DNA from: Eledone cirrhosa | Taxonomy: Eukaryota | Direction: 5' to 3' | NCBI GenBank assembly: GCA_964016885.1 | Contig: OZ024744.1 | Location: forward strand, 115,382,001 to 115,446,000 | DNA length: 64,000 bases | In this document: positions 1 to 64,000 of the stretch, piece by piece | How the letters are laid out: each line of letters opens with the position of its first letter | Numbering within the stretch: the first letter of the stretch is position 1 | The notes under the pieces: model-generated | Told to the model about the DNA's origin: nothing | Databases searched by the model: none | Seen by the model: the letters and a program-made list of their open reading frames with translations, nothing else | Position numbers and translations under genes: made by a program

Positions 1-1820
1 ATAACCTCTACATTAACTACCCATGTCTCACTACCATGTAACATTACATCAGATGTCCACTGAAACATGTTAGCTTCATGTCTCTCCAGTCTCTATATAA
101 CCTCTACATTAACTACCCATGTCTCACTACCATGTAACATTACATCAGATGTCCATTGAAACATGCTAGCTTCATTTCTCTCCAGTCTCTGTATAACCTC
201 CACAGTAACTACCCATATTTCACTACCATGTAACATTACATAAGATGTCCATTGAAACATGCTAGCTTCATTTCTCTCCAATCTCTATATAACCTCTACA
301 TTGACTACCCATGTCTCACTACCATGTAACATTACATCAGATGTCTATTGAAACATGCTAGCCTCATTTCTCTCCAGTCTCTATATAACCTCTACATTAA
401 CTACCCATGTCTCACTACCATGTAACATTACATCACAGGGCCATTGAAACATGCTAGCTTCATTTCTCTCCAATCTCTATATAACCTCTACATTAACTAC
501 CCATGTCTCACTACCATGTAACATTACATCACAGGGCCATTGAAACATGCTAGCTTCATTTCTCTCCAGTCTCTATATAACCTCTACAGTAACTACCCAT
601 ATCTCACTACCATGTAACATTACATCAGATGTCTATTGAAACATGTTAGCTTCATTTCTCCACAGTCTCTATATAACCTCTACATTAACTACCGATATCT
701 CACTACCATGTAACATTGCATCAGATGTCCATTGAAACATGCTAGCTTCATTTCCCTCCAGTCTCTATGGAACCTCTACATTAACTACTCATGTCTCACT
801 ACCATGTAACATTACATAAGATGTCCATTGAAACATGCTAGCTTCATGTCTCTCTCGTCTCTATATAACCTCTACATTAACTACCCATGTCTCACTACCA
901 TGTAACACTACATCAGATGTCTATTGAAACATGCTAGCTTCATTTCTCTCCAGTCTCTATATAACCTCTAGCTTAACTACCCATATCTCACTACCATGTA
1001 ACATTACATCAGATGTCCATTGAAACATGTTAGCTTCATTTCCCTCCAGTCTCTACATAACCTCTACATTAACTACTCATGTCTCACTACCATGTAACAT
1101 TACATAAGATGTCCATTGAAACATGCTAGCTTCATTTCTCTCCAGTCTCTGTATAACCTCTATGTTAACTACCCATGTCTCACTACCATGTAACATTACA
1201 TCACAGGGCCATTGAAGCATGCTAGCTTCATTTCTCTCCAGTCTCTATATAACCTCTACATTAACTACCCATGTCTCACTACCATGTAACACTACATCAC
1301 AGGGCCATTGAAACATGCTAGCTTCATTTCTCTCCAGTCTCTATATAACCTCTACATTAACTACCCATGTCTCAGTACCATGTAACATTACATCAGATGT
1401 CTATTGAAACATGCTAGCTTCATTTCTATCTTGTCTCTATATAACCTCTACATTAACTACCCATGTCTCACTACCATGTAACATTACATCACAGGGCCAT
1501 TGAAACATGCAAGCTTCATTTCTCTCCAATCTCTATATAACCTCTACATTAACTACCCATGTCTCACTACCATGTAACATTACATCACAGGGCCATTGAA
1601 ACATGTTAGCTTCATTTCTCTCCAGTCTCTATATAACCTCTACACTAACTACCCATGTCTCACTACCAGGTAACATTACATTACAGGGCCATTGAAACAT
1701 GCTAGCTTCATTTCTCTCCAGTCTCTATATAACCTCTACATTAACTACCCATGTCTCACTACCATGTAACATTACATCAGATGTCCATTGAAACATGCTA
1801 GCTTCATGTCTCTCCAGTCT

Positions 1821-2039
1821 CTATATAACCTCTACATTAACTACCCATGTCTCACTACCATGTAACATTACATTACAAGGCCATTGAAACATGCTAGCTT
1901 CATATCTCTCCAGTCTCTGTATAACCTCTACAGTAACTACCCATGTCTCACTACCATGTAACATTACATTACAGGGACATTGAAACATGCTAGCTTCAAT
2001 CTCTCCAGTCTCTGTATAACCTCTACAGTAACTACCCAT
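1821..2039 (-). pseudogene. Cluster of the most LINE-like monomers (open codon CAG, VVTVE, WPCNV); not an expressed CDS
   Basis: Monomers carry ctctGtat (CAG instead of TAG), acaGtaact (Thr) and caTtacagg/caTtacaagg (Cys-Asn-Val) together. ORF track 1821..2039. Confidence 0.55.
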
Positions 2040-5000
2040 ATCTCACTACCATGTAACATTACATCAGATGTCTATTGAAACATACTAGCTTCATTTCTCT
2101 CCAGTCTCTATATAACCTCTACATTAACTACCCATAGCGCACTACCATGTAACATTACATCAGAAGTCCATTGAAACATGCTAGCTTCATTTCTCTCCAG
2201 TCTCTATATAACCTCTACATTAACTACCCATGTCTCACTACCATGTAACATTACATCAGATGTCCATTGAAACATGCTAGCTTCATTTCTCTCCAGTCTC
2301 TATATAACCTCTACATTAACTACGCATATCTCACTACCATGTAACATTACATAAGATGTCCATTGACACATGCTAGCTTCATTTCTCTCCAGTCTCTATA
2401 TAACCTCTACATTAACAACCCAGGTCTCACTACCATGTAACATTACATCAGATGTCCATTGAAACATGTTAGCTTCATGTCTCTCCAGTCTCTATATAAC
2501 CTCTACATTAACTACTCATGTCTCACTACCATGTAACATTACATAAGATGTCCATTGAAACATGCTAGCTTCATTTCTCTCCAGTCTCTATATAACCTCT
2601 ACATTAACTACCCATGTCTCACTACCATGTAACATTACATCACAGGGCAATTGAAACATATTAGCTTCATTTCTCTCCAGTCTCTATATAACCTCTACAG
2701 TAACTACCCATGTCTCACTACCATGTAACATTACATCACATGTCCATTGAAACATGTTAGCTTCATGTCTCTCCAGTCTCTATATAACCTCTACATTAAC
2801 TACCATGTAACATTACATCAGATGACCATGTAACATGCTAGCTTCATGTCTCTCCAGTCTCTATATAACCTCTACATTAACTACCCATGTCTCACTAGCA
2901 TGTAGCATTACATCAGATGTCCATTGAAACATGTTAACTTCACGTCTCTCTAGTCTCTATATAACCTCTACATTAACTACCCATGTCTCACTACCATGTA
3001 ACATTACATCAGATGTCCATTGAAACATGTTAGCTTCATGTCTCTCCAGTCTCTATATAACCTCTACATTAACTACCCATGTCTCACTACCATGTAACAT
3101 TACATCAGATGTCCATTGAAACATGCCAGCTTCATTTCTCTCCAGTCACTATATAACTCCTACATTAACTACCCATGTCTCACTACCATGTAACATTACA
3201 TCACAGGGCTATTGAAACATACTAGCTTCATTTCTCTCCAGTCTCTATATAACCTCTACATTAACTACACATCTCTCACTACCATGTAACATTACATCAG
3301 ATGTCCATTGAAACATGCTAGCTTCATTTCTCTCCAGTCTCTATATAACCTCTACATTAACTACCCATTTCGCACTACCATGTAACATTACATCAGAAGT
3401 CCATTGAAACATGCTACCTTCATTTCTCTCCAGTCTCTATATAACCTCTACATTAACTACCCATATCTCACTACCATGTAACATTACATCAGATGTCTAT
3501 TGAAACATGCTAGCTTCATTTCTCTCCAGTCTCTATATAACCTCTAGCTTAACTACCCATATCTCACTACCATGTAACATTACATCAGATGTCCATTGAA
3601 ACATGTTAGCTTCATTTCCCTCCAGTCTCTATATAACCTCTACATTAACTACTCATGTCTCACTACCATGTAATATTACATCACAGGGCCATTGAAACAT
3701 GCTAGCTTCATGTCTCTCCAGTCTCTATATAACCTCTACATTAACTACCCATGTCTCACTACCATGTAACATTACATCACAGGGCCATTGTAACATGCTA
3801 GCTTCATGTCTCTTCAGTCTCTATATAACCTTTACATTAACTACCCATGTCTCACTACCATGTAACATTACATCAGATGTCCATTGAAACATAGTAGCTT
3901 CATTTCTCACCAGTCTCTATATAACCTCTACATTAACTACCCATGTCTCACTACCATGTAACATTACATCACAGGGCCATTGAAACATGTTAGCTTCATT
4001 TCTCTCCAGTCTCTATATAACCTCTACATTAACTACCCATGTCTCACTACCATGTAACACTACATCAGATGTCCATTGTAACATGCTAGCTTCATGTCTC
4101 TCCAGTCTTTATATAAACTCTACATTAACTACCCATGTCTCACTACCATGTAACACTACATCAGATGTCCATTGTAACATGCTAGCTTCATGTCTCTCCA
4201 GTCTCTATATAACCTCTACATTAACTACCATGTCTCACTACCATGTAACATTACATCAGATGTCTATTGAAACATGCTAGCTTCATTTCTCTCCAGTCTC
4301 TATATAACCTCTACATTAACTACCCATGTCTCACTACCATGTAACACTACATCAGATGTCCATTGAAACATGCTAGCTTCATTTCTCTCCAGTCTCTATA
4401 TAACCTCTACATTAAATCCCCATGTCTCACTACCATGTAACATTACATCAGATGTCCATTGAAACATGCTAGCTTCATTTCTCTCCAGTCTCTATATAAC
4501 CTTTACATTAACTACCCATATCTCACTACCATGTAACATTACATCAGATGTCCATTGAAACATGCTAGCCTCATTTCTCTCCAGTCTCTATATAACCTCT
4601 ACATTAACTACCATGTCTCACTACCATGTAACATTACATCAGATGTCTATTGAAACATGCTAGCTTCATTTCTCTCCAGTCTCTATATAACCTCTACATT
4701 AACTACCCATGTCTCACTACAATTTAACATTACATCAGATGTCCATTGAAACATGCTAGCTTCATTACTCTCCAGTCTCTATATAACCTCTATATTAACT
4801 ACCCATGTCTCACTACCATGTAGCATTACATCAGATGTCCATTGAAACATGCTAGCTTCATTTCTCTCCAGTCTCTATATAACCTTTACATTAACTACCC
4901 ATGTCTCACTACCATGTAACATTACATCACAGGGCCATTGAAACATGCTAGCTTCATTTCTCTCCAGTCTCTATATAACCTCTACATTAACTACCCATAT

Positions 5001-6602: not shown

Positions 6603-6842
6603 CTATATAACCTCTACATTAACTACCCATGTCTCACTACCATGTAACATTACATTACAAGGCCATTGAAACATGCTAGCTTCATATCTCTCCAGTCTCT
6701 GTATAACCTCTACAGTAACTACCCATGTCTCACTACCATGTAACATTACATTACAGGGACATTGAAACATGCTAGCTTCATATCTCTCCAGTCTCTGTAT
6801 AACCTCTACAGTAACTACCCATATCTCACTACCATGTAACAT
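6603..6842 (-). pseudogene. Second copy of the LINE-like open monomer cluster; not an expressed CDS
   Basis: Same linked variants as 1821-2039 (ttacaaggcc, catatctc, ctctgtat, acagggacatt), offset 4782 bp. Confidence 0.55.
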
Positions 6843-9800: not shown

Positions 9801-10299
9801 CCATGTAACATTACATCACAGGGCCATTGAAACATGTTAGCTTCATTTCTCTCCAGTCTCTCTATAACCTCTACATTAACTACCCATGTCTCACTACCAT
9901 GTAACACTACATCAGATGTCCATTGAAACATGCTAGCTTCATGTCTCTCCAGTCTCTATATAACCTCTACATTAACTACCCATGTCTCACTACCATGTAA
10001 CACTACATCAGATGTCCATTGAAACATGCTAGCTTCACTTCTCTCCAGTCTCTATATAACCTATACATTAACTACCCATGTCTCACTACCTTGTAACATT
10101 ACATCAGATGTCCATTGAAACATACTAGCTTCATGTCTCTCCAGTCTCTATATAACCTCTACATTAACTACCATGTCTCACTACTATGTAACATTACATC
10201 AGATGTCCATTGAAACATGTTAGCTTCATTTCTCGCCGTCTTTATATAACCTCTACATTAACTAATCATGTCTCACTACCATGTAACATTACATCAGAT

Positions 10300-21534: not shown

Positions 21535-24500
21535 ATTTCTCTCCAGTCTCTATATAACCTCTACATTAACTACCCATGTCTCACTACCATGTAACATTAC
21601 ATCACATGTCCATTGAAACATGCTAGCTTCATTTCTCTTCAGTCTCTATATAACCTCTACATTAACTACCCATGTCTCACTACCATGTAACACTACATCA
21701 GATGTCCATTGAAACATGTTAGTTTCATTTCTCTCCAGTCTCTATATAACCTCTACATTAACTACCAATGTCTCACTACCATGTAACATTACATTACAGG
21801 GCCATTGAAACACGCTAGCTTCATTTCTCTCCAGTCTCTATATAACCTCTACAGTAACTACCCATGTCTCACTACCATGTAACATTACATCAGATGTCCA
21901 TTGAAACATGCTAGCTTCATGTCTCTCCAGTCTCTATATAACCTCTACATTAACTACCCATGTCTCACTACCATGTAACATTACATCAGATGTCCATTGA
22001 AACATGCTACCTTCATGTCTCTCCAGTCTATATATAACCTCTACATTAACTACCCATGTCTCACTACCCTGTAACATTACATCAGATGTCCATTGAAACA
22101 TGCTAGCTTCATTTCTCTCCAGTCTCTATATAACCTCTACAGTAACTACCCATGTCTCACTACCATGTAACATTACATCACAGGGCCATTGAAACACGCT
22201 AGCTTCATTTCTCACCAGTCTCTATATAACCTCTACATTAACTACCCATGTCTCACTACCATGTAACATTACATCAGATGTCTATTGAAACACGCTAGCT
22301 TCATTTCTCCAGTCTCTATATAACCTCTACATTAACTACCCATGTCTCACTACCATGTAACATTACATCAGATGTCTATTGAAACATGCTAGCTTCATGT
22401 CTCTCCAGTCTCTATATAACCTCTACATTAACTACCCATGTCTCACTACCATGTAACATTACATCAGATGTCCATTGAAACATGCTAGCTTCATTTCTCC
22501 ACAGTCTCTATATAACCTCTACATTAACTACCCATGTCTCACTACCATGTAACATTACATCAGATGTCCATTGAAACTTGCTAGCTTCATGTCTCTCTCG
22601 TCTCTATATAACCTCTACATTAACTACCCATGTCTCACTACCATGTAATATTACATCACAGGGCCATTGAAACATGCTAGCTTCATGTCTCTCCAGTCTC
22701 TATATAACCTCTACATTAACTACCCATGTCTCACTACCATGTAACATTACATCACAGGGCCATTGAAACATGCTAGCTTCATGTCTCTCCAGTCTCTATA
22801 TAACCTCTACATTAACTACCCATGTCTCACTACCATGTAACACTACATCAGATGTCCATTGAAACATGCTAGCCTCATTTCTCTCCAGTCTCTATATAAC
22901 CTCTACATTAACTACCCATGTCTCACTACCATGTAACATTACATCAGATGTCCATTGAAACATGCTAGCTTCATTTCTCTCCAGTCTCTATATAACCTCT
23001 ACATTAACTACCCATGACTCACTACCATGTAACATTACATCAGATGTCCATTGAAACATGTTAGCTTCATTTCTCTCAAGTCTCTATATAACCTCTACAT
23101 TAACTACCCATGTCTCACTATCATGTAACATTACATCAGATGTCCATTGAAACATGCTAGCTTCATGTCTCTCCAGTCTCTATATAACCTCTACATTAAC
23201 TACCCATGTCTCACTACCATGTAACATTACATCAAATGTCCATTGAAACATGTTAGCTTCATTTCTCTCCAGTCTCTATATAACCTCTACATTAACTACC
23301 CATGTCTCACTACCATGTAACATTACATCACATGTCCATTCAAACATGCTAGCTTCATTTCTCTTCAGTCTCTATATAACCTCTACATTAACTACCCATG
23401 TCTCACTACCATGTAACACTACATCAGATGTCCATTGAAACATGTTAGTTTCATTTCTCTCCAGTCTCTATAAAACCTCTACATTAACTACCAATGTCTC
23501 ACTACCATGTAACATTACATTACAGGGCCGTTGAAACACGCTAGCTTCATTTCTCTCCAGTCTCTATATAACCTCTACAGTAACTACCCATGTCTCACTA
23601 CCATGTAACATTACATCAGATGTCCATTGAAACATGCTAGCTTCATGTCTCTCCAGTCTCTATATAACCTCTACATTAACTACCCATGTCTCACTACCAT
23701 GTAACATTACATCAGATGTCCATTGAAACATGCTAGCTTCATGTCTCTCCAGTCTATATATAACCTCTACATTAACTACCCATGTCTCACTACCATGTAA
23801 CATTACATCAGATGTCCATTGAAACATGCTAGCTTCATTTCTCTCCAGTCTCTATATAACCTCTACAGTAACTACCCATGTCACACTACCATGTAACATT
23901 ACATCACAGGGCCATTAAAACACGCTAGCTTCATGTCTCTCCAGTCTCTATATAACCTCTACATTAACTACCCATGTCTCACTACCATGTAACATTACAT
24001 CAGATGTCTATTGAAACACGCTAGCTTCATTTCTCCAGTCTCTATATAACCTCTACATTAACTACCCATGTCTCACTACCATGTAACATTACATCAGATG
24101 TCTATTGAAACATGCTAGCTTCATGTCTCTCCAGTCTCTATATAACCTCTACATTAACTACCCATGTCTCACTACCATGTAACATTACATCAGATGTCCA
24201 TTGAAACATGCTAGCTTCATTTCTCTCCAGTCTCTATATAACCTCTACAGTAACTACCCATGTCTCACTACCATGTAACATTACATCACAGGGCCATTGA
24301 AACACGCTAGCTTCATTTCTCACCACTCTCTATATAACCTCTACATTAACTACCCATGTCTCACTACCATGTAACATTACATCAGATGTCTATTGAAACA
24401 TGCTAGCTTCATGTCTCTCCAGTCTCTATATAACCTCTACATTAACTACCCATGTCTCACTACCATGTAACATTACATCAGATGTCCATTGAAACATGCT

Positions 24501-27500
24501 AGCTTCATTTCTCTCCAGTCTCTATATAACCTCTACATTAACTACCCATGTCTCACTACCATGTAACACTACATCGGATGACCATGTAACATGCTAGCTT
24601 CATGTCTCTCCAGTCTCTATATAACCTCTACATTAACTACCCATGTCTCACTACCATGTAACACTACATCAGATGTCCATTGAAACATGCTAGCCTCATT
24701 TCTCTCCAGTCTCTATATAACCTCTACATTAACTACCCACGTCTCACTACCATGTAACATTACATCAGATGTCCATTGAAACATGCTAGCTTCATTTCTC
24801 TCCAGTCTCTATATAACCTCTACATTAACTACCCATGACTCACTACCATGTAACATTACATCAGATGTCCATTGAAACATGTTAGCTTCATTTCTCTCAA
24901 GTCTCTATATAACCTCTACATTAACTACCCATGTCTCACTATCATGTAACATTACATCAGATGTCCATTGAAACATGCTAGCTTCATGTCTCTCCAGTCT
25001 CTATATAACCTCTACATTAACTACCCATGTCTCACTACCATGTAACACTAAATCAGATGTCCATTGAAACATGCTAGCTTCATTTCTCTCCAGTCTCTAT
25101 ATAACCTCTACATTAACTACCCATGTCTCACTACCATGTAACACTACATCAGATGTCCATTGAAACATGCTAGCTTCATTTCTCTCCAGTCTCTATATAA
25201 CCTCTATATTAACTACCCATGTCTCACTACCATGTAACACTACATCGGATGACCATGTAACATGCTAGCTTCATTTCTCTCCGTCTTTATATAACCTCTA
25301 CATTAACTAACCATGTCTCACTACCATGTAACATTACATCAGATGTCCATTGAAACATGCTAGCTTCATGTCTCTCCAGTCTCTATATAACCTCTACATT
25401 AACTACCCATGTCTCACTACCATGTAACATTACATCAGATGTCCATTGAAACATAGTAGCTTCATTTCTCACCAGTCTCTATATAACCTCTACATTAACT
25501 ACCCATGTCTCACTTCCATGTAACATTACATCACAGGGCCATTGAAACATGTTAGCTTCATTTCTCTCCAGTCTCTATATAACCTCTACATTAACTACCC
25601 ATGTCTCACTACCATGTAACATTACATCACATGTCCATTGAAACATGCTAGCTTCATTTCTCTTCAGTCTCTATATAACCTCTACATTAACTACCCATGT
25701 CTCACTACCATGTAACACTACATCAGATGTCCATTGAAACATGTTAGTTTCATTTCTCTCCAGTCTCTATATAACCTCTACATTAACTACCAATGTCTCA
25801 CTACCATGTAACATTACATTACAGGGCCATTGAAACACGCTAGCTTCATTTCTCTCCAGTCTCTATATAACCTCTACAGTAACTACCCATGTCTCACTAC
25901 CATGTAACATTACATCAGATGTCCATTGAAACATGCTAGCTTCATGTCTCTCCAGTCTCTATATAACCTCTACATTAACTACCCATGTCTCACTACCATG
26001 TAACATTACATCAGATGTCTATTGAAACATGCTAGCTTCATGTCTCTCCAGTCTCTATATAACCTCTACATTAACTACCCATGTCTCACTACCATGTAAC
26101 ATTACATCAGATGTCCATTGAAACATGCTAGCTTCATTTCTCTCCAGTTTCTATATAACCTCTACAGTAACTACCCATGTCTCACTACCATGTAACATTA
26201 CATCACAGGGCCATTGAAACACGCTAGCTTCATTTCTCACCAGTCTCTATATAACCTCTACATTAACTACCCATGTCTCACTACCATGTAACATTACATC
26301 ACAGGGCCATTGAAACATGCTAGCTTCATGTCTCTCCAGTCTCTATATAACCTATACATTAACTACCCATGTCTCACTACCATGTAACATTACATCAGAT
26401 GTCTATTGAAACACGCTAGCTTCATTTCTCCAGTCTCTATATAACCTCTACATTAACTACCCATGTCTCACTACCATGTAACATTACATCAGATGTCTAT
26501 TGAAACATGCTAGCTTCATGTCTCTCCAGTCTCTATATAACCTCTACATTAACTACCCATGTCTCACTACCATGTAACATTACATCAGATGTCCATTGAA
26601 ACATGCTAGCTTCATTTCTCCACAGTCTCTATATAACCTCTACATTAACTACCCATGCCTCACTACCATGTAACATTACATCAGATGTCCATTGAAACAT
26701 GCTAGCTTCATGTCTCTCTCGTCTCTATATAACCTCTACATTAACTACCCATGTCTCACTACCATGTAATATTACATCACAGGGCCATTGAAACATGCTA
26801 GCTTCATGTCTCTCCAGTCTCTATATAACCTCTACATTAACTACCCATGTCTCACTACCATGTAACATTACATCACAGGGCCATTGAAACATGCTAGCTT
26901 CATTTCTCTCCAATCTCTATATAACCTCTACATTAACTACCCATGTCTCACTACCATGTAACAATACATCACAGGGCCATTGAAACATGTTAGCTTCATT
27001 TCTCTCCAGTCTCTCTATAACCTCTACATTAACTACCCATGTCTCACTACCATGTAACATTATGTTACAGGTCCATTGAAACATGCTAGCTTCATTTCTC
27101 TCCAGTCTCTATATAACCTCTACATTAACTACCCATGTCTCTCTACCATGTAACATTACATCACATGTCCATTGAAACAGGCTAGCTTCATTTCTCTCCA
27201 GTCTCTATATAACCTCTACAGTAACTACCCATGTCTCACTACCATGTAACATTACATAATATGTCCATTGAAACATGCTAGCTTCATATCTCTCCAGTCT
27301 CTATATAACCTCTACATTAACTACCCATATCTCACTACCATGTTACATTACATTAAATGTCCATTGAAACATGCTAGCTTCATTTCTCTCCAGTCTCTAT
27401 ATAACCTCTATATTAACTACACATGTCTCACTCCCATGTAACATTACATCAGATGTCCATTGAAACATGCTAGCTTCATTTCTCTCCAGTCTCTATATAA

Positions 27501-30500
27501 CCTCTACATTAACTACCCATGTCTCACTACCATGTAACATTACATCACATGTCCATTGAAACATGCTAGCTTCATTTCTCTTCAGTCTCTATATAACCTC
27601 TACATTAACTACCCATGTCTCACTACCATGTAACACTACATCAGATGTCCATTGAAACATGTTAGTTTCATTTCTCTCCAGTCTCTATATAACCTCTACA
27701 TTAACTACCAATGTCTCACTACCATGTAACATTACATTACAGGGCCATTGAAACACGCTAGCTTCATTTCTCTCCAGTCTCTATATAACCTCTACAGTAA
27801 CTACCCATGTCTCACTACCATGTAACATTACATCAGATGTCCATTGAAACATGCTAGCTTCATGTCTCTCCAGTCTCTATATAACCTCTACATTAACTAC
27901 CCATGTCTCACTACCATGTAACATTACATCAGATGTCCATTGAAACATGCTACCTTCATGTCTCTCCAGTCTATATATAACCTCTACATTAACTACCCAT
28001 GTCTCACTACCATGTAACATTACATCAGATGTCCATTGAAACATGCTAGCTTCATTTCTCTCCAGTCTCTATATAACCTCTACAGTAACTACCCATGTCT
28101 CACTACCATGTAACATTACATCACAGGGCCATTGAAACACGCTAGCTTCATTTCTCACCAGTCTCTATATAACCTCTACATTAACTACCCATGTCTCACT
28201 ACCATGTAACATTACATCAGATGTCTATTGAAACACGCTAGCTTCATTTCTCCAGTCTCTATATAACCTCTACATTAACTACCCATGTCTCACTACCATG
28301 TAACATTACATCAGATGTCTATTGAAACATGCTAGCTTCATGTCTCTCCAGTCTCTATATAACCTCTACATTAACTACCCATGTCTCACTACCATGTAAC
28401 ATTACATCAGATGTCCATTGAAACATGCTAGCTTCATTTCTCCACAGTCTCTATATAACCTCTACATTAACTACCCATGTCTCACTACCATGTAACATTA
28501 CATCAGATGTCCATTGAAACATGCTAGCTTCATGTCTCTCTCGTCTCTATATAACCTCTACATTAACTACCCATGTCTCACTACCATGTAATATTACATC
28601 ACAGGGCCATTGAAACATGCTAGCTTCATGTCTCTCCAGTCTCTATATAACCTCTACATTAACTACCCATGTCTCACTACCATGTAACATTACATCACAG
28701 GGCCATTGAAACATGCTAGCTTCATGTCTCTCCAGTCTCTATATAACCTCTACATTAACTACCCATGTCTCACTACCATGTAACACTACATCAGATGTCC
28801 ATTGAAACATGCTAGCCTCATTTCTCTCCAGTCTCTATATAACCTCTACATTAACTACCCATGTCTCACTACCATGTAACATTACATCAGATGTCCATTG
28901 AAACATGCTAGCTTCATTTCTCTCCAGTCTCTATATAACCTCTACATTAACTACCCATGACTCACTACCATGTAACATTACATCAGATGTCCATTGAAAC
29001 ATGTTAGCTTCATTTCTCTCAAGTCTCTATATAACCTCTACATTAACTACCCATGTCTCACTATCATGTAACATTACATCAGATGTCCATTGAAACATGC
29101 TAGCTTCATGTCTCTCCAGTCTCTATATAACCTCTACATTAACTACCCATGTCTCACTACCATGTAACATTACATCAAATGTCCATTGAAACATGTTAGC
29201 TTCATTTCTCTCCAGTCTCTATATAACCTCTACATTAACTACCCATGTCTCACTACCATGTAACATTACATCACATGTCCATTCAAACATGCTAGCTTCA
29301 TTTCTCTTCAGTCTCTATATAACCTCTACATTAACTACCCATGTCTCACTACCATGTAACACTACATCAGATGTCCATTGAAACATGTTAGTTTCATTTC
29401 TCTCCAGTCTCTATATAACCTCTACATTAACTACCAATGTCTCACTACCATGTAACATTACATTACAGGGCCGTTGAAACACGCTAGCTTCATTTCTCTC
29501 CAGTCTCTATATAACCTCTACAGTAACTACCCATGTCTCACTACCATGTAACATTACATCAGATGTCCATTGAAACATGCTAGCTTCATGTCTCTCCAGT
29601 CTCTATATAACCTCTACATTAACTACCCATGTCTCACTACCATGTAACATTACATCAGATGTCCATTGAAACATGCTAGCTTCATGTCTCTCCAGTCTAT
29701 ATATAACCTCTACATTAACTACCCATGTCTCACTACCATGTAACATTACATCAGATGTCCATTGAAACATGCTAGCTTCATTTCTCTCCAGTCTCTATAT
29801 AACCTCTACAGTAACTACCCATGTCACACTACCATGTAACATTACATCACAGGGCCATTAAAACACGCTAGCTTCATGTCTCTCCAGTCTCTATATAACC
29901 TCTACATTAACTACCCATGTCTCACTACCATGTAACATTACATCAGATGTCTATTGAAACACGCTAGCTTCATTTCTCCAGTCTCTATATAACCTCTACA
30001 TTAACTACCCATGTCTCACTACCATGTAACATTACATCAGATGTCTATTGAAACATGCTAGCTTCATGTCTCTCCAGTCTCTATATAACCTCTACATTAA
30101 CTACCCATGTCTCACTACCATGTAACATTACATCAGATGTCCATTGAAACATGCTAGCTTCATTTCTCTCCAGTCTCTATATAACCTCTACAGTAACTAC
30201 CCATGTCTCACTACCATGTAACATTACATCACAGGGCCATTGAAACACGCTAGCTTCATTTCTCACCACTCTCTATATAACCTCTACATTAACTACCCAT
30301 GTCTCACTACCATGTAACATTACATCAGATGTCTATTGAAACATGCTAGCTTCATGTCTCTCCAGTCTCTATATAACCTCTACATTAACTACCCATGTCT
30401 CACTACCATGTAACATTACATCAGATGTCCATTGAAACATGCTAGCTTCATTTCTCTCCAGTCTCTATATAACCTCTACATTAACTACCCATGTCTCACT

Positions 30501-33420
30501 ACCATGTAACACTACATCGGATGACCATGTAACATGCTAGCTTCATGTCTCTCCAGTCTCTATATAACCTCTACATTAACTACCCATGTCTCACTACCAT
30601 GTAACACTACATCAGATGTCCATTGAAACATGCTAGCCTCATTTCTCTCCAGTCTCTATATAACCTCTACATTAACTACCCACGTCTCACTACCATGTAA
30701 CATTACATCAGATGTCCATTGAAACATGCTAGCTTCATTTCTCTCCAGTCTCTATATAACCTCTACATTAACTACCCATGACTCACTACCATGTAACATT
30801 ACATCAGATGTCCATTGAAACATGTTAGCTTCATTTCTCTCAAGTCTCTATATAACCTCTACATTAACTACCCATGTCTCACTATCATGTAACATTACAT
30901 CAGATGTCCATTGAAACATGCTAGCTTCATGTCTCTCCAGTCTCTATATAACCTCTACATTAACTACCCATGTCTCACTACCATGTAACACTAAATCAGA
31001 TGTCCATTGAAACATGCTAGCTTCATTTCTCTCCAGTCTCTATATAACCTCTACATTAACTACCCATGTCTCACTACCATGTAACACTACATCAGATGTC
31101 CATTGAAACATGCTAGCTTCATTTCTCTCCAGTCTCTATATAACCTCTATATTAACTACCCATGTCTCACTACCATGTAACACTACATCGGATGACCATG
31201 TAACATGCTAGCTTCATTTCTCTCCGTCTTTATATAACCTCTACATTAACTAACCATGTCTTACTACCATGTAACATTACATCAGATGTCCATTGAAACA
31301 TGCTAGCTTCATGTCTCTCCAGTCTCTATATAACCTCTACATTAACTACCCATGTCTCACTACCATGTAACATTACATCAGATGTCCATTGAAACATAGT
31401 AGCTTCATTTCTCACCAGTCTCTATATAACCTCTACATTAACTACCCATGTCTCACTTCCATGTAACATTACATCACAGGGCCATTGAAACATGTTAGCT
31501 TCATTTCTCTCCAGTCTCTATATAACCTCTACATTAACTACCCATGTCTCACTACCATGTAACATTACATCACATGTCCATTGAAACATGCTAGCTTCAT
31601 TTCTCTTCAGTCTCTATATAACCTCTACATTAACTACCCATGTCTCACTACCATGTAACACTACATCAGATGTCCATTGAAACATGTTAGTTTCATTTCT
31701 CTCCAGTCTCTATATAACCTCTACATTAACTACCAATGTCTCACTACCATGTAACATTACATTACAGGGCCATTGAAACACGCTAGCTTCATTTCTCTCC
31801 AGTCTCTATATAACCTCTACAGTAACTACCCATGTCTCACTACCATGTAACATTACATCAGATGTCCATTGAAACATGCTAGCTTCATGTCTCTCCAGTC
31901 TCTATATAACCTCTACATTAACTACCCATGTCTCACTACCATGTAACATTACATCAGATGTCCATTGAAACATGCTAGCTTCATGTCTCTCCAGTCTCTA
32001 TATAACCTCTACATTAACTACCCATGTCTCACTACCATGTAACATTACATCAGATGTCCATTGAAACATGCTAGCTTCATTTCTCTCCAGTTTCTATATA
32101 ACCTCTACAGTAACTACCCATGTCTCACTACCATGTAACATTACATCACAGGGCCATTGAAACACGCTAGCTTCATTTCTCACCAGTCTCTATATAACCT
32201 CTACATTAACTACCCATGTCTCACTACCATGTAACATTACATCACAGGGCCATTGAAACATGCTAGCTTCATGTCTCTCCAGTCTCTATATAACCTATAC
32301 ATTAACTACCCATGTCTCACTACCATGTAACATTACATCAGATGTCTATTGAAACACGCTAGCTTCATTTCTCCAGTCTCTATATAACCTCTACATTAAC
32401 TACCCATGTCTCACTACCATGTAACATTACATCAGATGTCTATTGAAACATGCTAGCTTCATGTCTCTCCAGTCTCTATATAACCTCTACATTAACTACC
32501 CATGTCTCACTACCATGTAACATTACATCAGATGTCCATTGAAACATGCTAGCTTCATTTCTCCACAGTCTCTATATAACCTCTACATTAACTACCCATG
32601 CCTCACTACCATGTAACATTACATCAGATGTCCATTGAAACATGCTAGCTTCATGTCTCTCTCGTCTCTATATAACCTCTACATTAACTACCCATGTCTC
32701 ACTACCATGTAATATTACATCACAGGGCCATTGAAACATGCTAGCTTCATGTCTCTCCAGTCTCTATATAACCTCTACATTAACTACCCATGTCTCACTA
32801 CCATGTAACATTACATCACAGGGCCATTGAAACATGCTAGCTTCATTTCTCTCCAATCTCTATATAACCTCTACATTAACTACCCATGTCTCACTACCAT
32901 GTAACAATACATCACAGGGCCATTGAAACATGTTAGCTTCATTTCTCTCCAGTCTCTCTATAACCTCTACATTAACTACCCATGTCTCACTACCATGTAA
33001 CATTACGTTACAGGTCCATTGAAACATGCTAGCTTCATTTCTCTCCAGTCTCTATATAACCTCTACATTAACTACCCATGTCTCTCTACCATGTAACATT
33101 ACATCACATGTCCATTGAAACAGGCTAGCTTCATTTCTCTCCAGTCTCTATATAACCTCTACAGTAACTACCCATGTCTCACTACCATGTAACATTACAT
33201 AAGATGTCCATTGAAACATGCTAGCTTCATATCTCTCCAGTCTCTATATAACCTCTACATTAACTACCCATATCTCACTACCATGTTACATTACATTAAA
33301 TGTCCATTGAAACATGCTAGCTTCATTTCTCTCCAGTCTCTATATAACCTCTATATTAACTACACATGTCTCACTCCCATGTAACATTACATCAGGTGTC
33401 CATTGAAACATGCTAGCTTC
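21535..33420. repeat. Tandem near-identical 5943-bp (62-mer) duplication, junction near 27480
   Basis: ORFs 23250/29193, catgcctc 26657/32600, gttacag 27064/33007 and acatgtctcactccc 27421/33364 are all offset by 5943 bp. Confidence 0.92.
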
Positions 33421-35640: not shown

Positions 35641-38600
35641 TCTATATAACCTCTACATTAACTACCCATGTCTCACTACCATGTAACATTACATCACAGG
35701 GCCATTGAAACATGTTAGCTTCATTTCTCTCCAGTCTCTCTATAAACTCTACATTAACTACCCATGTCTCACTACCATGTAACACTACATCAGATGTCCA
35801 TTGAAACATGCTAGCTTCATGTCTCTCCAGTCTCCATATAACCTCTACATTAACTACCCATGTCTCACTACCATGTAACACTACATCAGATGTCCATTGA
35901 AACATGCTAGCTTCACTTCTCTCCAGTCTCTATATAACCTCTACATTAACTACCATGTCTCACTACCATGTAACATTACATCAGATGTCCATTGAAACAT
36001 GTTAGCTTCATTTCTCGCCGTCTTTATATAACCTCTACATTAACTAACCATGTCTCACTACCATGTAACATTACATCAGATGTCCATTGAAACATGCTAG
36101 CTTCATGTCTCTCCAGTCTCTATATAACCTCTACATTAACTACCCATGTCTCACTACCATGTAACATTACATCAGATGTCCATTGAAACATAGTAGCTTC
36201 ATTTCTCACCAGTCTCTATATAACCTCTACATTAACTACCCATGTCTCACTACCATGTAACACTACATCGGATGACCATGTAACATGCTAGATTCATGTC
36301 TCTCCAGTCTCTATATAACCTCTACATTAACTACCCATGTCTCACTACCATGTAACACTACATCAGATGTCCATTGAAACATGATAGCCTCATTTCTCTC
36401 CAGTCTCTATATAACCTCTACATTAACTACCCATGTCTCACTACCATGTAACATTAAATCAGATGTCCATTGAAACATGCTAGCTTCATTTCTCTCCAGT
36501 CTCTATATAACCTCTACATTAACTACCCATGTCTCACTACCATGTAACACTACATCGGATGACCATGTAACATGCTAGATTCATGTCTCTCCAGTCTCTA
36601 TATAACCTCTACATTAACTACCCATGTCTCACTACCATGTAACACTACATCAGATGTCCATTGAAACATGCTAGCCTCATTTCTCTCCAGTCTCTATATA
36701 ACCTCTACATTAACTACCCATGTCTCACTACCATGTAACATTACATCAGATGTCCATTGAAACATGCTAGCTTCATTTCTCTCCAGTCTCTATATAACCT
36801 CTACATTAACTACCCATGACTCACTACCATGTAACATTACATCAGATGTCCATTGAAACATGTTAGCTTCATTTCTCTCAAGTCTCTATATAGCCTCTAC
36901 ATTAACTACCCATGTCTCACTATCATGTAACATTACATCGGATGACCATGTAACATGCTAGATTCATGTCTCTCCAGTCTCTATATAACCTCTACATTAA
37001 CTACCCATGTCTCACTACCATGTAACATTACATCAGATGTCCATTGAAACATAGTAGCTTCATTTCTCACCAGTCTCTATATAACCTCTACATTAACTAC
37101 CCATGTCTCACTTCCATGTAACATTACATCAGATGTCCATTGAAACATGCTAGCTTCATTTCTCTCCAGTCTCTATATAACCTCTATATTAACTACCCAT
37201 GTCTCACTACCATGTAACACTACATCGGATGACCATGTAACATGCTAGCTTCATTTCTCTCCAGTCTCTATATAACCTCTATATTAACTACCCATGTCTC
37301 ACTACCATGTAACACTACATCAGATGTCCATTGAAACATGCTAGCTTCATTTCTCTCCAATCTCTATATAACCTATACATTAACTACCCATGTCTCACTA
37401 CCATGTAACATTACATCAGATGTCCATTGAAACATACTAGCTTCATGTCTCTCCAGTCTCTATATAACCTCTACGTTAACTACCATGTCTCACTACCATG
37501 TAACATTACATCAGGTGTCCATTGAAACATGTTAGCTTCATTTCTCTCCGTCTTTATATAACCTCTACATTAACTAACCATGTCTCACTACCATGTAACA
37601 TTACATCAGATGTCCATTGAAACATGCTAGCCTCATGTCTCTCCAGTCTCTATATAACCTCTACATTAACTACCCATGTCTCACTACCATGTAACATTAC
37701 ATCAGATGTCCATTGAAACATAGTAGCTTCATTTCTCACCAGTCTCTATATAACCTCTACATTAACTACCCATGTCTCACTTCCATGTAACATTACATCA
37801 CAGGGCCATTGAAACATGTTAGCTTCATTTCTCTCCAGGCTCTATATAACCTCTACATTAACTACCCATGTCTCACTACCATGTAACATTACATCACATG
37901 TCCATTGAAACATGCTAGCTTCATTTCTCTTCAGTCTCTATATAAATTCTACATTAACTACCCATGTCTCACTACCATGTAACACTACATCAGATGTCCA
38001 TTGAAACATGTTAGTTTCATTTCTCGCCAGTCTCTATATAACCTCTACATTAACTACCCATGTCTCACTACCATGTAACACTACATCAGATGTCCATTGA
38101 AACATGTTAGTTTCATTTCTCTCCAGTCTCTATATAACCTCTACATTAACTACCAATGTCTCACTACCATGTAACATTACATTACAGGGCCATTGAAACA
38201 CGCTAGCTTCATTTCTCTCCAGTCTCTATATAACCTCTACAGTAACTACCCATGTCTCACTACCATGTAACATTACATCAGATGTCCATTGAAACATGCT
38301 AGCTTCATGTCTCTCCAGTCTCTATATAACCTCTACATTAACTACCCATGTCTCACTACCATGTAACATTACATCAGATGTCCATTGAAACATGCTAGCT
38401 TCATTTCTCTCCAGTCTCTATATAACCTCTACAGTAACTACCCATGTCTCACTACCATGTAACATTACATCACAGGGCCATTGAAACACGCTAGCTTCAT
38501 TTCTCACCAGTCTCTATATAACCTCTACATTAACTACCCATGTCTCACTACCATGTAACATTACATCACAGGGCCATTGAAACATGCTAGCTTCATGTCT

Positions 38601-59400: not shown

Positions 59401-60550
59401 TATAACCTCTACATTAACTACCCATGTCTCACTACCATGTAACATTACATCAGATGTCTATTGAAACATGCTAGATTCATGTCTCTCCAGTCTCTATATA
59501 ACCTCTACATTAACTACCCATGTCTCACTACCATGTAACATTACATCAGATGTCCATTGAAACATGCTAGCTTCATGTCTCTCTCGTCTCTATATAACCT
59601 CTACATTAACTACCCATGTCTCACTACCATGTAATATTACATCACAGGGCCATTGAAACATGCTAGCTTCATGTCTCTCCAGTCTCTATATAACCTCTAC
59701 ATTAACTACCCATGTCTCACTACCATGTAACATTACATCACAGGGCCATTGAAACATGCTAGCTTCATTTCTCTCCAATCTCTATATAACCTCTACATTA
59801 ACTACCCATGTCTCACTACCATGTAACATTACATCACAGGGCCATTGAAACATGTTAGCTTCATTTCTCTCCAATCTCTCTATAACCTCTACATTAACTA
59901 CCCATGTCTCACTACCATGTAACATTAAGTTACAGATCCATTGAAACATGCTAGCTTCATTTCTCTCCAGTCTCTATATAACCTCTACATTAACTACCCA
60001 TGTCTCACTACCATGTAACATTACATCAGATGTCCATTGAAACATGTTAGCATCATTTCTCTCAAGTCTCTATATAACCTCTACATTAACTACCCATGTC
60101 TCACTATCGTGTAACATTACATCAGATGTCCATTGAAACATGCTAGCTTCATGTCTCTCCAGTCTCTATATAACCTCTACATTAACTACCCATGTCTCAC
60201 TACCATGTAACACTACATCAGATGTCCATTGAAACATGCTAGCTTCATTTCTCTCCAGTCTCTATATAACCTCTATATTAACTACCCATGTCTCACTACC
60301 ATGTAACACTACATCGGATGACCATGTAACATGCTAGCTTCATTTCTCTCCAGTCTCTATATAACCTCTACATTAACTACCCATGTCTCACTACCATGTA
60401 ACACTACATCAGATGTCCATTGAAACATGCTAGCTTCATGTCTCTCCAGTCTCTATATAACCTCTACATTAACTACCCATGTCTGACTACCATGTAACAT
60501 TACATCAGATGTCCATTGAAACATGCTAGCTTCACTTCTCTCCAGTCTCT
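50490..60550. repeat. Tandem triplet of higher-order units: 3449 bp (36-mer), 3449 bp and 3162 bp (33-mer)
   Basis: Markers cgttaac 51557/55006/58168, taagttacagatcc 53318/56767/59929, tctgactacc 53871/57320/60482 and catgg/catgc 52111/55560/58722. Confidence 0.92.
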
Positions 60551-60659
60551 ATATAACCTATACATTAACTACCCATGTCTCACTACCTTGTAACATTACA
60601 TCAGATGTCCATTGAAACATACTAGCTTCATGTCTCTCCAGTCTCTATATAACCTCTAC

Positions 60660-63600
60660 ATTAACTACCATGTCTCACTACCCTGTAACACTACATCAGA
60701 TGTCCATTGAAACATGCTAGCTTCATTTCTCTCCAGTCTCTATATAACCTCTATATTAACTACCCATGTCTCACTACCATGTAACACTACATCGGATGAC
60801 CATGTAACATGCTAGCTTCATTTCTCTCCAGTCTCTATATAACCTCTACATTAACTACCCATTTCTCAACACCATGTAATACTACATCAGATGTCCATTG
60901 AAACATGCTAGCTTCATGTCTCTCCAGTCTCTATATAACCTCTACATTAACTACCCATGTCTCATTACCATGTAACACTACATCAGATGTCCATTGAAAC
61001 ATGATAGCTTCATTTCTCTCCAGTCTCTATATAACCTATACATTAACTACCCATCTCTCACTACCATGTAACATTACATCAGATGTCCATTGAAACATAC
61101 TAGCTTCATGTCTCTCCAGTCTCTATATAACCTCTACATTAACTACCATGTCTCACTATCATGTAACATTACATCAGATGTCCATTGAAACATGCTAGCT
61201 TCATGTCTCTCCAGTCTCTATATAACCTCTACATTAACTACCCATGTCTCACTACCATGTAACATTACATCAGATGTCCATTGAAACATGCTAGCTTCTT
61301 GTCTCTCCAGTCTCTATATAACCTCTACATTAACTACCCATGTCTCACTACCATGTAACATTACATCAGATGTCCATTGAAACATGTTAGCTTCATTTCT
61401 TCAAGTCTCTATATAACCTCTACATTAACTACCCATGTCTCACTATCATGTAACATTACATCAGATGTCCATTGAAACATGCTAGCTTCATTTCTCTCCA
61501 GTCTCTATATAACCTCTACATTAACTACCCATGTCTCACTACCATGTAACACTACATCAGATGTCCATTGAAACATGCTAGCTTCATTTCTCTCCAGTCT
61601 CTATATAACCTCTATATTAACTACCCATGTCTCACTACCATGAAACACTACATCGGATGACCATGTAACATGCTAGCTTCATTTCTCTCCAGTCTCTATA
61701 TAACCTCTACATTAACTACCCATGTCTCATTACCATGTAACACTACATCAGATGTCCATTGAAACATGCTAGCTTCATTTCTCTCCAGTCTCTATATAAC
61801 CTATACATTAACTACCCATGTCTCACTACCATGTAACATTACATCAGATGTCCATTGAAACATACTAGCTTCATGTCTCTCCAGTCTCTATATAACCTCT
61901 ACATTAACTACCATGTCTCACTACCCTGTAACACTACATCAGATGTCCATTGAAACATGCTAGCTTCATTTCTCTCCAGTCTCTATATAACCTCTATATT
62001 AACTACCCATGTCTCACTACCATGTAACACTACATCGGATGACCATGTAACATGCTAGCTTCATTTCTCTCCAGTCTCTATATAACCTCTACATTAACTA
62101 CCCATGTCTCAACACCATGTAACACTACATCAGATGTCCATTGAAACATGCTAGCTTCATGTCTCTCCAGTCTCTATATAACCTCTACATTAACTACCCA
62201 TGTCTCATTACCATGTAACACTACATCAGATGTCCATTGAAACATGCTAGCTTCATTTCTCTCCAGTCTCTATATAACCTATACATTAACTACCCATGTC
62301 TCACTACCATGTAACATTACATCAGATGTCCATTGAAACATGCTAGCTTCATGTCTCTCCAGTCTCTATATAACCTCTACATTAACTACCATGTCTCACT
62401 ACCCTGTAACACTACATCAGATGTCCATTGAAACATGCTAGCTTCATTTCTCTCCAGTCTCTATATAACCTCTACATTAACTACTCATGTCTCACTACCA
62501 TGTAACACTACATCAGATGTCCATTGAAACATGTTAGCTTCATTTCTATCTTGTCTCTATATAACCTCTACATTAACTACCCATATCTCACTACCATGTA
62601 ACATTACAACAGATGTCCATCGTAACATGTTAGCTTCATATCTCTCCAGTCTCTGTATAACCTCTACATTAACTACCCATGTCTCACTACCATGTAACAT
62701 TACATTACATGGCCATTGAAACATGCTAGCTTCATGTCTCTTCAGCCTCTATATAACCTCTACATTAACTACCCATGTCTCACTACCATGTAACATTATA
62801 TCAGATGTCCATTGAAACATGCTACCTTCATTTCTCTCCAGTCTCTATATAACCTCTACATTAACTACCCAAGTCTCACTACCATGTAACATTACATCAG
62901 ATGTCCATTGAAACATGTTAGCTTCATGTCTCTCAAGTCTCTATATAACCTCTACATTAACTACCCATGTCTCACTACCATGTAACACTACATCAGATGT
63001 CCATTGAAACATGCTAGCTTCATTTCTCTCCAGTCTCTATATAACCTCTACATTAACTACCCATGTCTCACTACCATGTAACATTACATCAGATGTCCAT
63101 TGAAACATGTTAGCTTCATTTCTCTCAAGTCTCTATATAACCTCTACATTAACTACCCATGTCTCACTATCATGTAACATTACATCAGATGTCCATTGAA
63201 ACATGCTAGCTTCATGTCTCTCCAGTCTCTATATAACCTCTACATTAACTACCCATGTCTCACTACCATGTAACATTACATTAAATGTCCATTGAAACAT
63301 GTTAGCTTCATTTCTCTCCAGTCTCTATATAACCTCTACATTAACTACCCATGTCTCACTACCCTGTAACACTACATCAGATGTCCATTGAAACATGCTA
63401 GCTTCATTTCTCTCCAGTCTCTATATAACCTCTATATTAACTACCCATGTCTCACTACCATGTAACACTACATCGGATGACCATGTAACATGCTAGCTTC
63501 ATTTCTCTCCAGTCTCTATATAACCTCTACATTAACTACCCATTTCTCAACACCATGTAATACTACATTACATGGCCATTGAAACATGCTAGCTTCATGT

Positions 63601-64000
63601 CTCTCCAGTCTCTATATAACCTCTACATTAACTACCCATGTCTCATTACCATGTAACACTACATCAGATGTCCATTGAAACATGATAGCTTCATTTCTCT
63701 CCAGTCTCTATATAACCTATACATTAACTACCCATCTCTCACTACCATGTAACATTACATCAGATGTCCATTGAAACATACTAGCTTCATGTCTCTCCAG
63801 TCTCTATATAACCTCTACATTAACTACCATGTCTCACTATCATGTAACATTACATCAGATGTCCATTGAAACATGCTAGCTTCATGTCTCTCCAGTCTCT
63901 ATATAACCTCTACATTAACTACCCATGTCTCACTACCATGTAACATTACATCAGATGTCCATTGAAACATGCTAGCTTCTTGTCTCTCCAGTCTCTATAT
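60660..64000. repeat. Block at ~60660-61320 repeated 2681 bp (28 monomers) downstream at ~63340-64000
   Basis: atttctcaacaccatgtaatact 60861/63542, atgatagctt 61001/63682 and ccatctctca 61051/63732. Confidence 0.85.

What the first reader, a model, noticed from the sequence alone, without database searches (positions are those of the whole stretch)
1..64000. A large satellite array born from 32 codons of a LINE reverse-transcriptase ORF
Seen: the monomer is 96 bp and translates on the minus strand to MLHGSETWVVNVEVI*RLERNEASMFQWTSDV with a single stop. Known: 'YGSETW...RLE..E.RMLRW' is a conserved segment after the RT core of RTE-type and related non-LTR retrotransposons, and satellites can arise from transposon pieces. 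Inference: a short internal coding fragment, rather than a UTR or terminal region, was tandemly amplified to at least 64 kb. The wording MLHGSETW/LERNEASM resembles RTE elements I recall from octopus genomes, but that attribution is from memory and unverified.
Basis: partly seen in the sequence, partly recalled or inferred. Interest (0 to 1): 0.75.

Follow-up and report, generated by a model that had tools for sequence, protein, structure and literature searches.

The report
Intronic satellite from dead LINE slice
A 111-kb tandem repeat in the introns of an octopus-type synergin-gamma gene is built from a 96-base slice of the coding part of a decayed jumping gene (LINE); it shows no sign of selection to encode protein and likely moved between introns by recombining with leftover LINE fragments.

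Summary
Observation confirmed. It is part of a 111.5-kb array (about 1,140 units) in two neighbouring introns of a synergin-gamma gene of an octopod. The unit is collinear with residues 885-916 of an intact host LINE ORF (endonuclease + RT; BLASTP E 3e-12) and up to 77/96 identical to copies of an older, decayed family. The predicted flanks are not at the outer ends of the big array. Downstream LINE sequence is joined to a 12-copy array 223 kb away in the same gene. The big array's exon-side end is a LINE/satellite chimera joined in register. There is no coding constraint: a stop in 1,069 of 1,139 units and synonymous variants at chance level. The same LINE core also forms 40-, 42-, 47-, 69/73- and 83-bp arrays elsewhere, but a positional hotspot is not shown (2 of 15 vs 1 of 60, p=0.10). 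Transposon-derived satellites, some from ORFs, are in print. This scan already reported this phenomenon on other DNA of this genome. Verdict: a real, well-documented new variant of a known kind.

The parts
1..64000 (-). 96-bp satellite, 668 units, LINE sense on the minus strand. The window is the middle of a 111.5-kb array (G000:C28:115,368,283-115,479,793; 1,139 units aligned, 474 distinct) that runs about 13.7 kb past the left end and 33.8 kb past the right end. Parts outside the window (chimeric end, exon island, 12-copy and 16-copy arrays) are listed under Noticed in passing and in the full report
1..64000 (-). Part of one ~110-kb intron of a synergin-gamma gene on the minus strand; the flanking exon matches lie at C28:115,477,451-115,477,648 (right) and 115,366,843-115,367,007 and 115,366,293-115,366,454 (left)
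48..143 (-). One unit in LINE register (Val-Met-Leu-His-Gly-Ser-Glu-Thr-Trp ... Trp-Thr-Ser-Asp), matching residues ~884-915 of the intact host LINE ORF
   Evidence: register; match
6663..6770 (-). Stop-free 36-residue stretch used for the protein comparisons; 20/33 identical to the host LINE ORF
35645..35929 (-). Longest stop-free run in the LINE frame (95 residues), where neighbouring units lost the stop by point change; no Pfam family reaches its cut-off
21554..33400 (.). Recent tandem block duplication of 62 units (about 5.9 kb; 61 consecutive unit pairs differ by at most 1 base); the end coordinate is approximate
2784..2864 (.). The single 81-bp unit (15-bp deletion)

Best explanation
This is a satellite with no sign of coding constraint whose whole unit is a 96-bp slice of a decayed LINE ORF; it likely arose by a short-homology duplication inside one dead copy, likely moved between introns of one gene by recombining with resident LINE fragments, and likely grew by unequal exchange of multi-kilobase blocks. 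Shown: the LINE origin; the intronic position; the lack of coding constraint; two different LINE-joined ends, in two introns separated by host exons; recent block duplications. Inferred: (1) the parent copy was already dead, since 17 of the 20 differences from the old-family majority are in at least 95% of units and the stop is in 94%; (2) the first duplication used a short imperfect repeat at the junction, where an in-register 96-bp slip and a 91-bp slip plus a 5-bp stutter predict the same letters, so the preserved frame is likely luck; (3) at least one of the two LINE-joined ends is a landing site, because host exons in conserved order lie between them; (4) the 12-copy array is the likelier birthplace (about 55%). 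Confidence: LINE origin 0.97, non-coding 0.9, homology-guided move 0.7.
For: Collinear match to the host ORF; old copies reach 70-77/96. The intact element has Exo_endo_phos and RVT_1 above cut-off. Exons of synergin gamma lie in order on both sides of the array and up to the 12-copy array. Synonymous share of variant alleles 0.18-0.21 vs 0.19 expected; codon positions hit equally 42/39/41; stop in 1,069 of 1,139 units. Chimeric end unit: LINE state at 6 of 6 sites, then satellite state at 9 of 9, while 0 of 1,139 array units carry more than one LINE-state base at those six sites. The downstream flank of the 12-copy array scores 40-87 against 6 of 8 old copies, shuffle maxima 26-31; the two misses are copies whose downstream part looks cut short. 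17 runs of 15 or more near-identical units at lags of 22-108 units, and no array-wide higher-order repeat. Nascent arrays with LINE flanks exist for the same core: L114, L119, L187 upstream; L089, L115, L187, L199 downstream.
Against: No site holds the 96-bp array with both full LINE flanks. The 5' flank of the 12-copy array shows no significant LINE match (score 24 vs background about 17-27). The 12-copy array shares a deletion variant (4 of 11 units) with 4-5% of the big array, so it has exchanged sequence recently and could be a recipient. The junction repeat is no stronger than chance (11/14; codon shuffles reach 11 or more in 195 of 200). No public contig bridged the seed junction. Six minus-strand matches of the diagnostic motif lie at a fourth site that I could not locate.
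Confidence: 0.72

Rival explanations
1. One spreading core: the 40-, 42-, 47-, 69/73-, 83- and 96-bp arrays are not independent births. They descend from one repeat core that is copied from dead LINE copy to dead LINE copy by gene-conversion-like repair, and is then re-cut to new unit lengths by local duplication. This extends the best explanation rather than excluding it.
For: The base before the CATGG core is A in most units of 14 of 14 array loci but G in 22 of 25 single copies. The 73-bp array found by walking 81 kb to the right matches unit positions 4-43 at 40/40; unselected single copies average 29.4/40 (range 24-34; the 29 of 60 that reached 24). Flanks of array-bearing copies are no more alike (63%, 15 pairs from 6 of 9 flanks) than those of single copies (70%), so they are not one subfamily. 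In L187 the first unit has the host G and the later units have A. The same 69/73-bp unit sits on C25 and C28.
Against: Most arrays were found with a motif designed from this satellite, which fixes unit positions 17-44. G>A and C>T changes are the commonest decay (13 of 20 differences), so some sharing can be convergent. The A could come from downstream sequence at the junction. A 40-bp core is too short for a tree.
Confidence: 0.5
2. Independent births at an intrinsic hotspot: this ORF segment is unusually prone to slip, so each array arose in place from its own LINE copy.
For: At least six unit lengths from one core. 12 of the first 20 loci of the satellite-derived motif are tandem, two of them near-identical duplicates. 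7 of the 15 scored vs 1 of 60 control loci, p=2e-5.
Against: With a motif taken from the family majority the excess is not significant: 2 of 15 vs 1 of 60, p=0.10; by listing, 2 of 19 vs 4 of 161, p=0.12. None of the 60 copies anchored on flanking motifs had this core amplified, while other parts were. The segment has fewer short direct repeats than the ORF average and no outstanding self-match.
Confidence: 0.3
3. The repeat was made by the element's own reverse transcriptase (template jumps during insertion), or spread as a repeat-bearing LINE subfamily.
For: Small arrays sit in register inside LINE copies. Ahmed and Liang suggest that tandem repetition can be triggered during retrotransposition (PMC3389668, passages).
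Against: The units carry decay changes and a stop shared by nearly all copies, so amplification followed decay. Flanks do not define a subfamily. No LINE tail lies at the LINE-3' end of the big or the inverted array.
Confidence: 0.08
4. The array has a selected function (peptide, centromere-like or regulatory).
For: The unit is a whole number of codons, lies on the sense strand of a host gene and would be part of its pre-mRNA.
Against: No coding constraint. 762 of 768 motif matches lie at three sites on one contig, in a mosaic of unrelated satellites.
Confidence: 0.07

Closest known systems
SINE-derived satellites (sSat) of squamates (Vassetzky et al. 2023, PMC10702118; abstract and Discussion read)
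   Same: Tandem repeats of an internal piece of an abundant retroposon; a terminal unit that continues into the parent element on one side; loci from a few to about 1000 units; several unit variants from one element.
   Different: Here the parent is a LINE and the piece is ORF sequence; the host is an octopod; the array is intronic; and one end is a chimera with a second resident copy.
Satellites containing LINE ORF2 sequence: chicken HinfI (CR1), Phodopus PROsat (L1); gag-derived rye and Aegilops repeats (as listed in reviews PMC9659126 and PMC6947457; passages read, primary papers not seen)
   Same: Coding sequence of a retroelement ends up in a tandem repeat.
   Different: As the review describes them, those contain a partial ORF beside UTR, or match over a small region. 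Here the entire 96-bp unit is one ORF slice. The review states that non-coding parts prevail as sources.
Rsp-like satellite spreading into 1.688 clusters in Drosophila (Sproul et al. 2020, PMC7403614; abstract and one Discussion section read)
   Same: A rare satellite joins an abundant dispersed repeat by homology-mediated repair, forms hybrid units, and expands by unequal exchange.
   Different: The landing pads here would be dead copies of the satellite's own parent LINE, with longer in-register homology; no cross-species synteny or eccDNA data here.
TE-derived minisatellites and TE-internal hotspots in human (Ahmed and Liang 2012, PMC3389668; passages read)
   Same: Duplication inside a TE copy followed by local expansion; some TE regions over-represented.
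   Different: Most human cases have about two units (Alu means 2.3-2.4); this one reached about 1,140.
RTE-clade LINEs, e.g. octopus RTE-2_OV (Petrosino et al. 2022, PMC9115989; passages read)
   Same: Single ORF of about 1,000-1,100 residues with endonuclease, RT and a zinc finger; octopod host.
   Different: No sequence comparison was possible. The finger here scores as PHD and follows the Pfam RT match. The satellite's parent is an older decayed family.

Membership tests
Satellite DNA | Long head-to-tail array of a homogeneous unit | tested here: met
   111.5 kb, 1,139 units, 6.8% mean pairwise difference
Satellite DNA | Heterochromatic or centromeric location | not testable with these tools
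   Lies in introns within a satellite-rich stretch; chromatin state unknown
TE-derived satellite | Unit collinear with part of a dispersed element of the same genome | tested here: met
   Ungapped 67/96 to the young element and up to 77/96 to old copies; E 3e-12 at protein level
TE-derived satellite | Array end continuous with the parent element | tested here: met
   Met on one side at the 12-copy array and at the chimeric end of the main tract; not met at the outer ends of the big array or at the inverted array
Non-LTR retrotransposon, APE type (source element) | Endonuclease plus RT in one ORF | tested here: met
   Exo_endo_phos 29 bits and RVT_1 104.5 bits, both above cut-off; best PDB match L1 ORF2p, E 4e-27
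RTE clade (source element) | Single ORF, no ORF1 (PMC13295347, passage) | tested here: met
   One 1,024-residue frame; no plus-strand frame over 96 residues in the 1.5 kb upstream; tested on the young family only
RTE clade (source element) | Microsatellite-like 3' tail (PMC13295347, passages) | tested here: met
   Trinucleotide tail directly after the stop in 2 of 2 intact copies
RTE clade (source element) | Target-site duplication | tested here: inconclusive
   Only 6-bp matches in 2 of 2 copies
RTE clade (source element) | RT phylogeny groups with named RTE elements | not testable with these tools
   No Repbase or Dfam; the 120 listed homologues were nearly all unnamed
Higher-order-repeat satellite | Fixed multi-unit period across the array | tested here: not met
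   Divergence flat at 6.4-6.8% for lags 1-79; only local blocks
Protein-coding tandem repeat | Open frame with an excess of synonymous change | tested here: not met
   Stop in 1,069 of 1,139 units; synonymous share at chance

The most novel reading that the evidence does not exclude
Dead LINE copies form a genome-wide network of landing pads. One short ORF core is passed between them by homology-directed repair and re-cut into satellites of new unit length (40 to 96 bp), some reaching over 100 kb inside introns. Satellite birth, transfer and expansion could then be read step by step, at base resolution, in one genome.
Probability: 0.5. Interest if true: 0.62.

Novelty: new variant of a known kind. 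Interest (0 to 1): 0.4.

Why it matters
How satellites start is still poorly resolved; Ahmed and Liang could explain only 6% of TE-derived tandem repeats by known models (PMC3389668, abstract passage). Here the parent family, nascent arrays of 5-20 units, a chimeric junction and a 1,140-unit array coexist, so the order of events can be tested by comparing octopod genomes. It also shows satellites inflating a conserved gene to at least 348 kb, and warns that such arrays can pass for RT fragments in annotation. It is not a new mechanism class, and no function is shown.

Tried and rejected
Pfam on five stop-free array peptides: nothing reaches a cut-off, so Pfam alone does not show the origin. 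Search of 1.84 billion representatives with a 36-residue stretch: 4 hits; 3 read as LINE-like fragments with the same motif and 1 looks unrelated. LINE flanks at the outer ends of the big array: none. A tblastn extension at the right end (residues 839-916) was rejected because DNA scores there are background; the score of 53 on the left comes from a stretch filled by the 48-bp satellite and was not pursued. The idea that the big and the 12-copy arrays are one split array was rejected because host exons lie between them in order. Cryptic direct repeats or a hairpin as the cause of a hotspot: no excess; folding energy is only about 1.3-1.8 SD below shuffles. Repeat-bearing subfamily: not supported by flanks. 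Three pattern searches for the fourth site failed. Sequencing runs: no RNA holder listed. Reads laid on the seed junction: the unit is in contigs of X1 and X2 (one sample, possibly the assembly's own), no record bridges the junction, and RAD reads of two other samples fit only partly; no conclusion drawn. The identity column printed for L184-L199 was off by one base and was redone. Paper searches listed no paper on a cephalopod LINE-ORF satellite; most subscription journals and all supplements were unseen, so this is weak.
Full report
1. Observation. The whole window is one 96-bp array of 668 units. 586 of 667 intervals are 96 bp, 80 are 94-95 bp and one is 81 bp; full-length units differ by 6.0% pairwise. 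The majority unit translates on the minus strand to the quoted peptide with one stop. In the host assembly (G000, 3.0 Gb; the window is C28:115,382,001-115,446,000) the array spans C28:115,368,283-115,479,793, 111.5 kb, broken by two 468-bp inserts and a 1.09-kb island. A 26-base diagnostic motif has 750 plus and 18 minus matches. Of these, 744 are in this array, 6 in a 12-copy array at 115.144 Mb, 12 in an inverted 16-copy array at 113.57 Mb, and 6 are unlocated.

2. Source. The genome is full of a LINE with a single 1,024-residue frame (120,215 first-look candidates, 150 scored). It carries endonuclease, RT and a PHD finger and has L1 ORF2p as best solved relative. The unit aligns without gaps to residues 885-916, after the Pfam RT match (541-743): BLASTP E 3e-12, protein score 100 vs shuffle maximum 45, other frames 20-27. 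An older decayed family is closer: 13 of 14 copies picked by a majority motif reach 70-77/96, and one with a deletion 54/96; the majority of 17 copies picked from 60 anchored on flanking motifs is 78/96. 13 of 20 differences from the old-family majority are C>T or G>A, and 17 of 20 are in at least 95% of units, so the parent had likely decayed before amplification. The RTE label fits the single ORF and trinucleotide tail (features from PMC13295347, passages) but was not tested by a tree.

3. Setting. An EH-domain exon left of the array is 94-96% identical to synergin gamma of Octopus vulgaris, O. bimaculoides and Argonauta hians. tblastn places 13 exon matches of the O. vulgaris protein in order on the minus strand from 115,494,673 to 115,146,070 (only part of that interval was fetched). 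The main tract fills a ~110-kb intron. The 1.09-kb island holds the exon for residues 403-468, with 15 more units in the intron before it. The 12-copy array lies about 760 bp past the exon for residues 1245-1263. The region is a mosaic of other satellites.

4. Ends. Two inner ends are informative. The 12-copy array runs, after a gap of about 20 bp, into ~170 bp of downstream LINE including the WYGHVM motif (scores 40-87 against 6 of 8 old copies vs shuffle maxima 26-31). The main tract begins 67 bp from the exon end with a unit that has old-LINE bases at 6 of 6 diagnostic sites (positions 29-50) and satellite bases at 9 of 9 sites from 54 on; none of the 1,139 aligned units has more than one such LINE base. 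Because host exons separate these two ends, they are two LINE copies, and at least one was likely a landing site for homology-directed repair (inference). The 12-copy array is more diverse (9.2% vs 6.8%, partly inflated by alignment round an indel) and keeps the longer flank, but shares a deletion variant with the big array. The birthplace is therefore only likely.

5. No coding role. 1,069 of 1,139 units have TAG or TAA at the same codon. Variant alleles are synonymous in 18-21% of cases vs 19% possible, and codon positions are hit equally. The junction can be read as an in-register 96-bp slip or a 91-bp slip plus a 5-bp stutter; both predict the same letters, and the 91-bp self-match (11/14) is no better than shuffles.

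6. Growth. There is no array-wide higher-order period, but 17 runs of 15 or more near-identical units occur at lags of 22-108 units, the largest a 62-unit tandem block. A 468-bp insert is duplicated 4.66 kb apart with its neighbours. This fits unequal exchange or break-induced block duplication (inference).

7. Sister arrays. A motif from the unit found 809 matches. The first 100 rows cover 20 loci, 12 of them tandem, with units of 33-73 bp; an 83-bp duplication and a 42-bp array also turned up. Several sit in register inside LINE copies. A 73/69-bp array of about 35 kb or more starts 81 kb right of this one and matches unit positions 4-43 at 40/40; unselected copies average 29.4/40. Arrays share an A where 22 of 25 single copies have G, while their flanks are no more alike than those of single copies. 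This favours a core that spreads between dead copies, but most arrays were found with a biased motif. With a majority motif the excess over two control motifs is 2 of 15 vs 1 of 60 (p=0.10). None of 60 flank-anchored copies had this core amplified, and other ORF parts also seed arrays, e.g. a 97-bp array with both flanks. A hotspot is not shown.

8. Comparison. TE-derived satellites are known, including ORF-derived cases (reviews PMC9659126 and PMC6947457, passages). Squamate SINE-derived satellites have the same anatomy (PMC10702118, abstract and Discussion). Rsp-like shows homology-mediated spread into a resident repeat (PMC7403614, abstract and one section). Human data show TE-internal hotspots (PMC3389668, passages). 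An O. vulgaris repeat annotation has no word starting with 'satellite' in its text (PMC13282606, passages). Seven searches listed no paper on this case; supplements and most subscription journals were not seen. Earlier unreviewed notes of this scan report the same phenomenon at other places in this genome; none matched this unit or place. They pointed me to three papers and to the spread hypothesis, which I then tested in part.

9. Verdict. Real and correctly interpreted in its core. It is a member of the TE-derived satellites; its source works like an RTE LINE, with membership tested only by anatomy. What is less usual is a unit made wholly of ORF, more than 100 kb inside a conserved gene, with a readable chimeric junction. 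New variant of a known kind; interest 0.4.

Noticed in passing
G000:C28:115,477,301-115,477,384 (L019, minus strand; 31 kb right of the window): Belongs to the finding: chimeric first unit of the main tract, with old-LINE bases at 6 of 6 sites then satellite bases at 9 of 9, 67 bp from a synergin-gamma exon (115,477,451-115,477,648) that has satellite on both sides.
   Followed up: yes
G000:C28:115,144,007-115,145,307 (L121, L122): Belongs to the finding: 12-copy array of the same unit joined to ~170 bp of downstream LINE, in a later intron of the same gene; candidate birthplace.
   Followed up: yes
G000:C28:113,568,491-113,569,998 (L026): Belongs to the finding: inverted 16-copy array of the same unit, 1.8 Mb away, without LINE flanks.
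   Followed up: yes
G000:C28:115,469,303-115,469,770 and 115,473,962-115,474,429 (L018): Two copies of a 468-bp insert (3' end of another LINE; CR1-like, label recalled), 4.66 kb apart, duplicated along with the array.
   Followed up: partly
G000:C28:115,561,158 to at least 115,596,000 (L065-L067, L214) and C25:1,816,500-1,831,750 (L109, L110, L224): A 73/69-bp satellite from the same LINE core plus upstream sequence, present on two contigs; 40/40 identical to the 96-bp unit over positions 4-43.
   Followed up: partly
L068:1918-4359: A 97-bp array of about 25 units from ORF residues ~506-534, sitting inside a LINE copy with both flanks kept.
   Followed up: partly
L019:4012-4986, L020:5632-7000, L215:8959-10000: A 64/65-bp satellite that reads like the WYGHVVRM segment of another LINE family; score 43 against the young ORF is not significant.
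   Followed up: partly
L014:5192-6281, L065:2874-3592, L219:5196-5984: A 48-bp satellite abutting the array's left end; 35/48 similar to a stretch of the young LINE's 5' region and matching a dispersed repeat.
   Followed up: partly
L059:2313-5387 (residues 757-800): A PHD finger follows the Pfam RT match in the young LINE; thousand-residue open frames are common among the 150 copies scored. Earlier notes already cover the finger.
   Followed up: no
G000:C28:115,146,070-115,494,673: The synergin-gamma gene spans at least 348 kb, with introns filled by many unrelated satellites (20, 29, 45, 55, 72, 96 bp and others).
   Followed up: partly
L119 (C1:5.82 Mb), L136, L177: Other short arrays that appear to come from neighbouring LINE segments: a 24-bp repeat directly after a 47-bp one; 21- and 16-bp repeats near the ORF end.
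   Followed up: no
L020:8962 to L064:2313 and L027-L028: A 59-bp satellite of over 50 kb right of the array also occurs beside the inverted array 1.8 Mb away, which suggests exchange between the two regions.
   Followed up: no
P0001, P0002: Unnamed proteins from other sources in which the same post-RT motif is repeated within one predicted protein; possible tandem duplications of this segment in other genomes.
   Followed up: no
L012-L013 (C28:115,348,000-115,353,400): A 29-bp satellite with repeated strand inversions every 0.5-1 kb.
   Followed up: no
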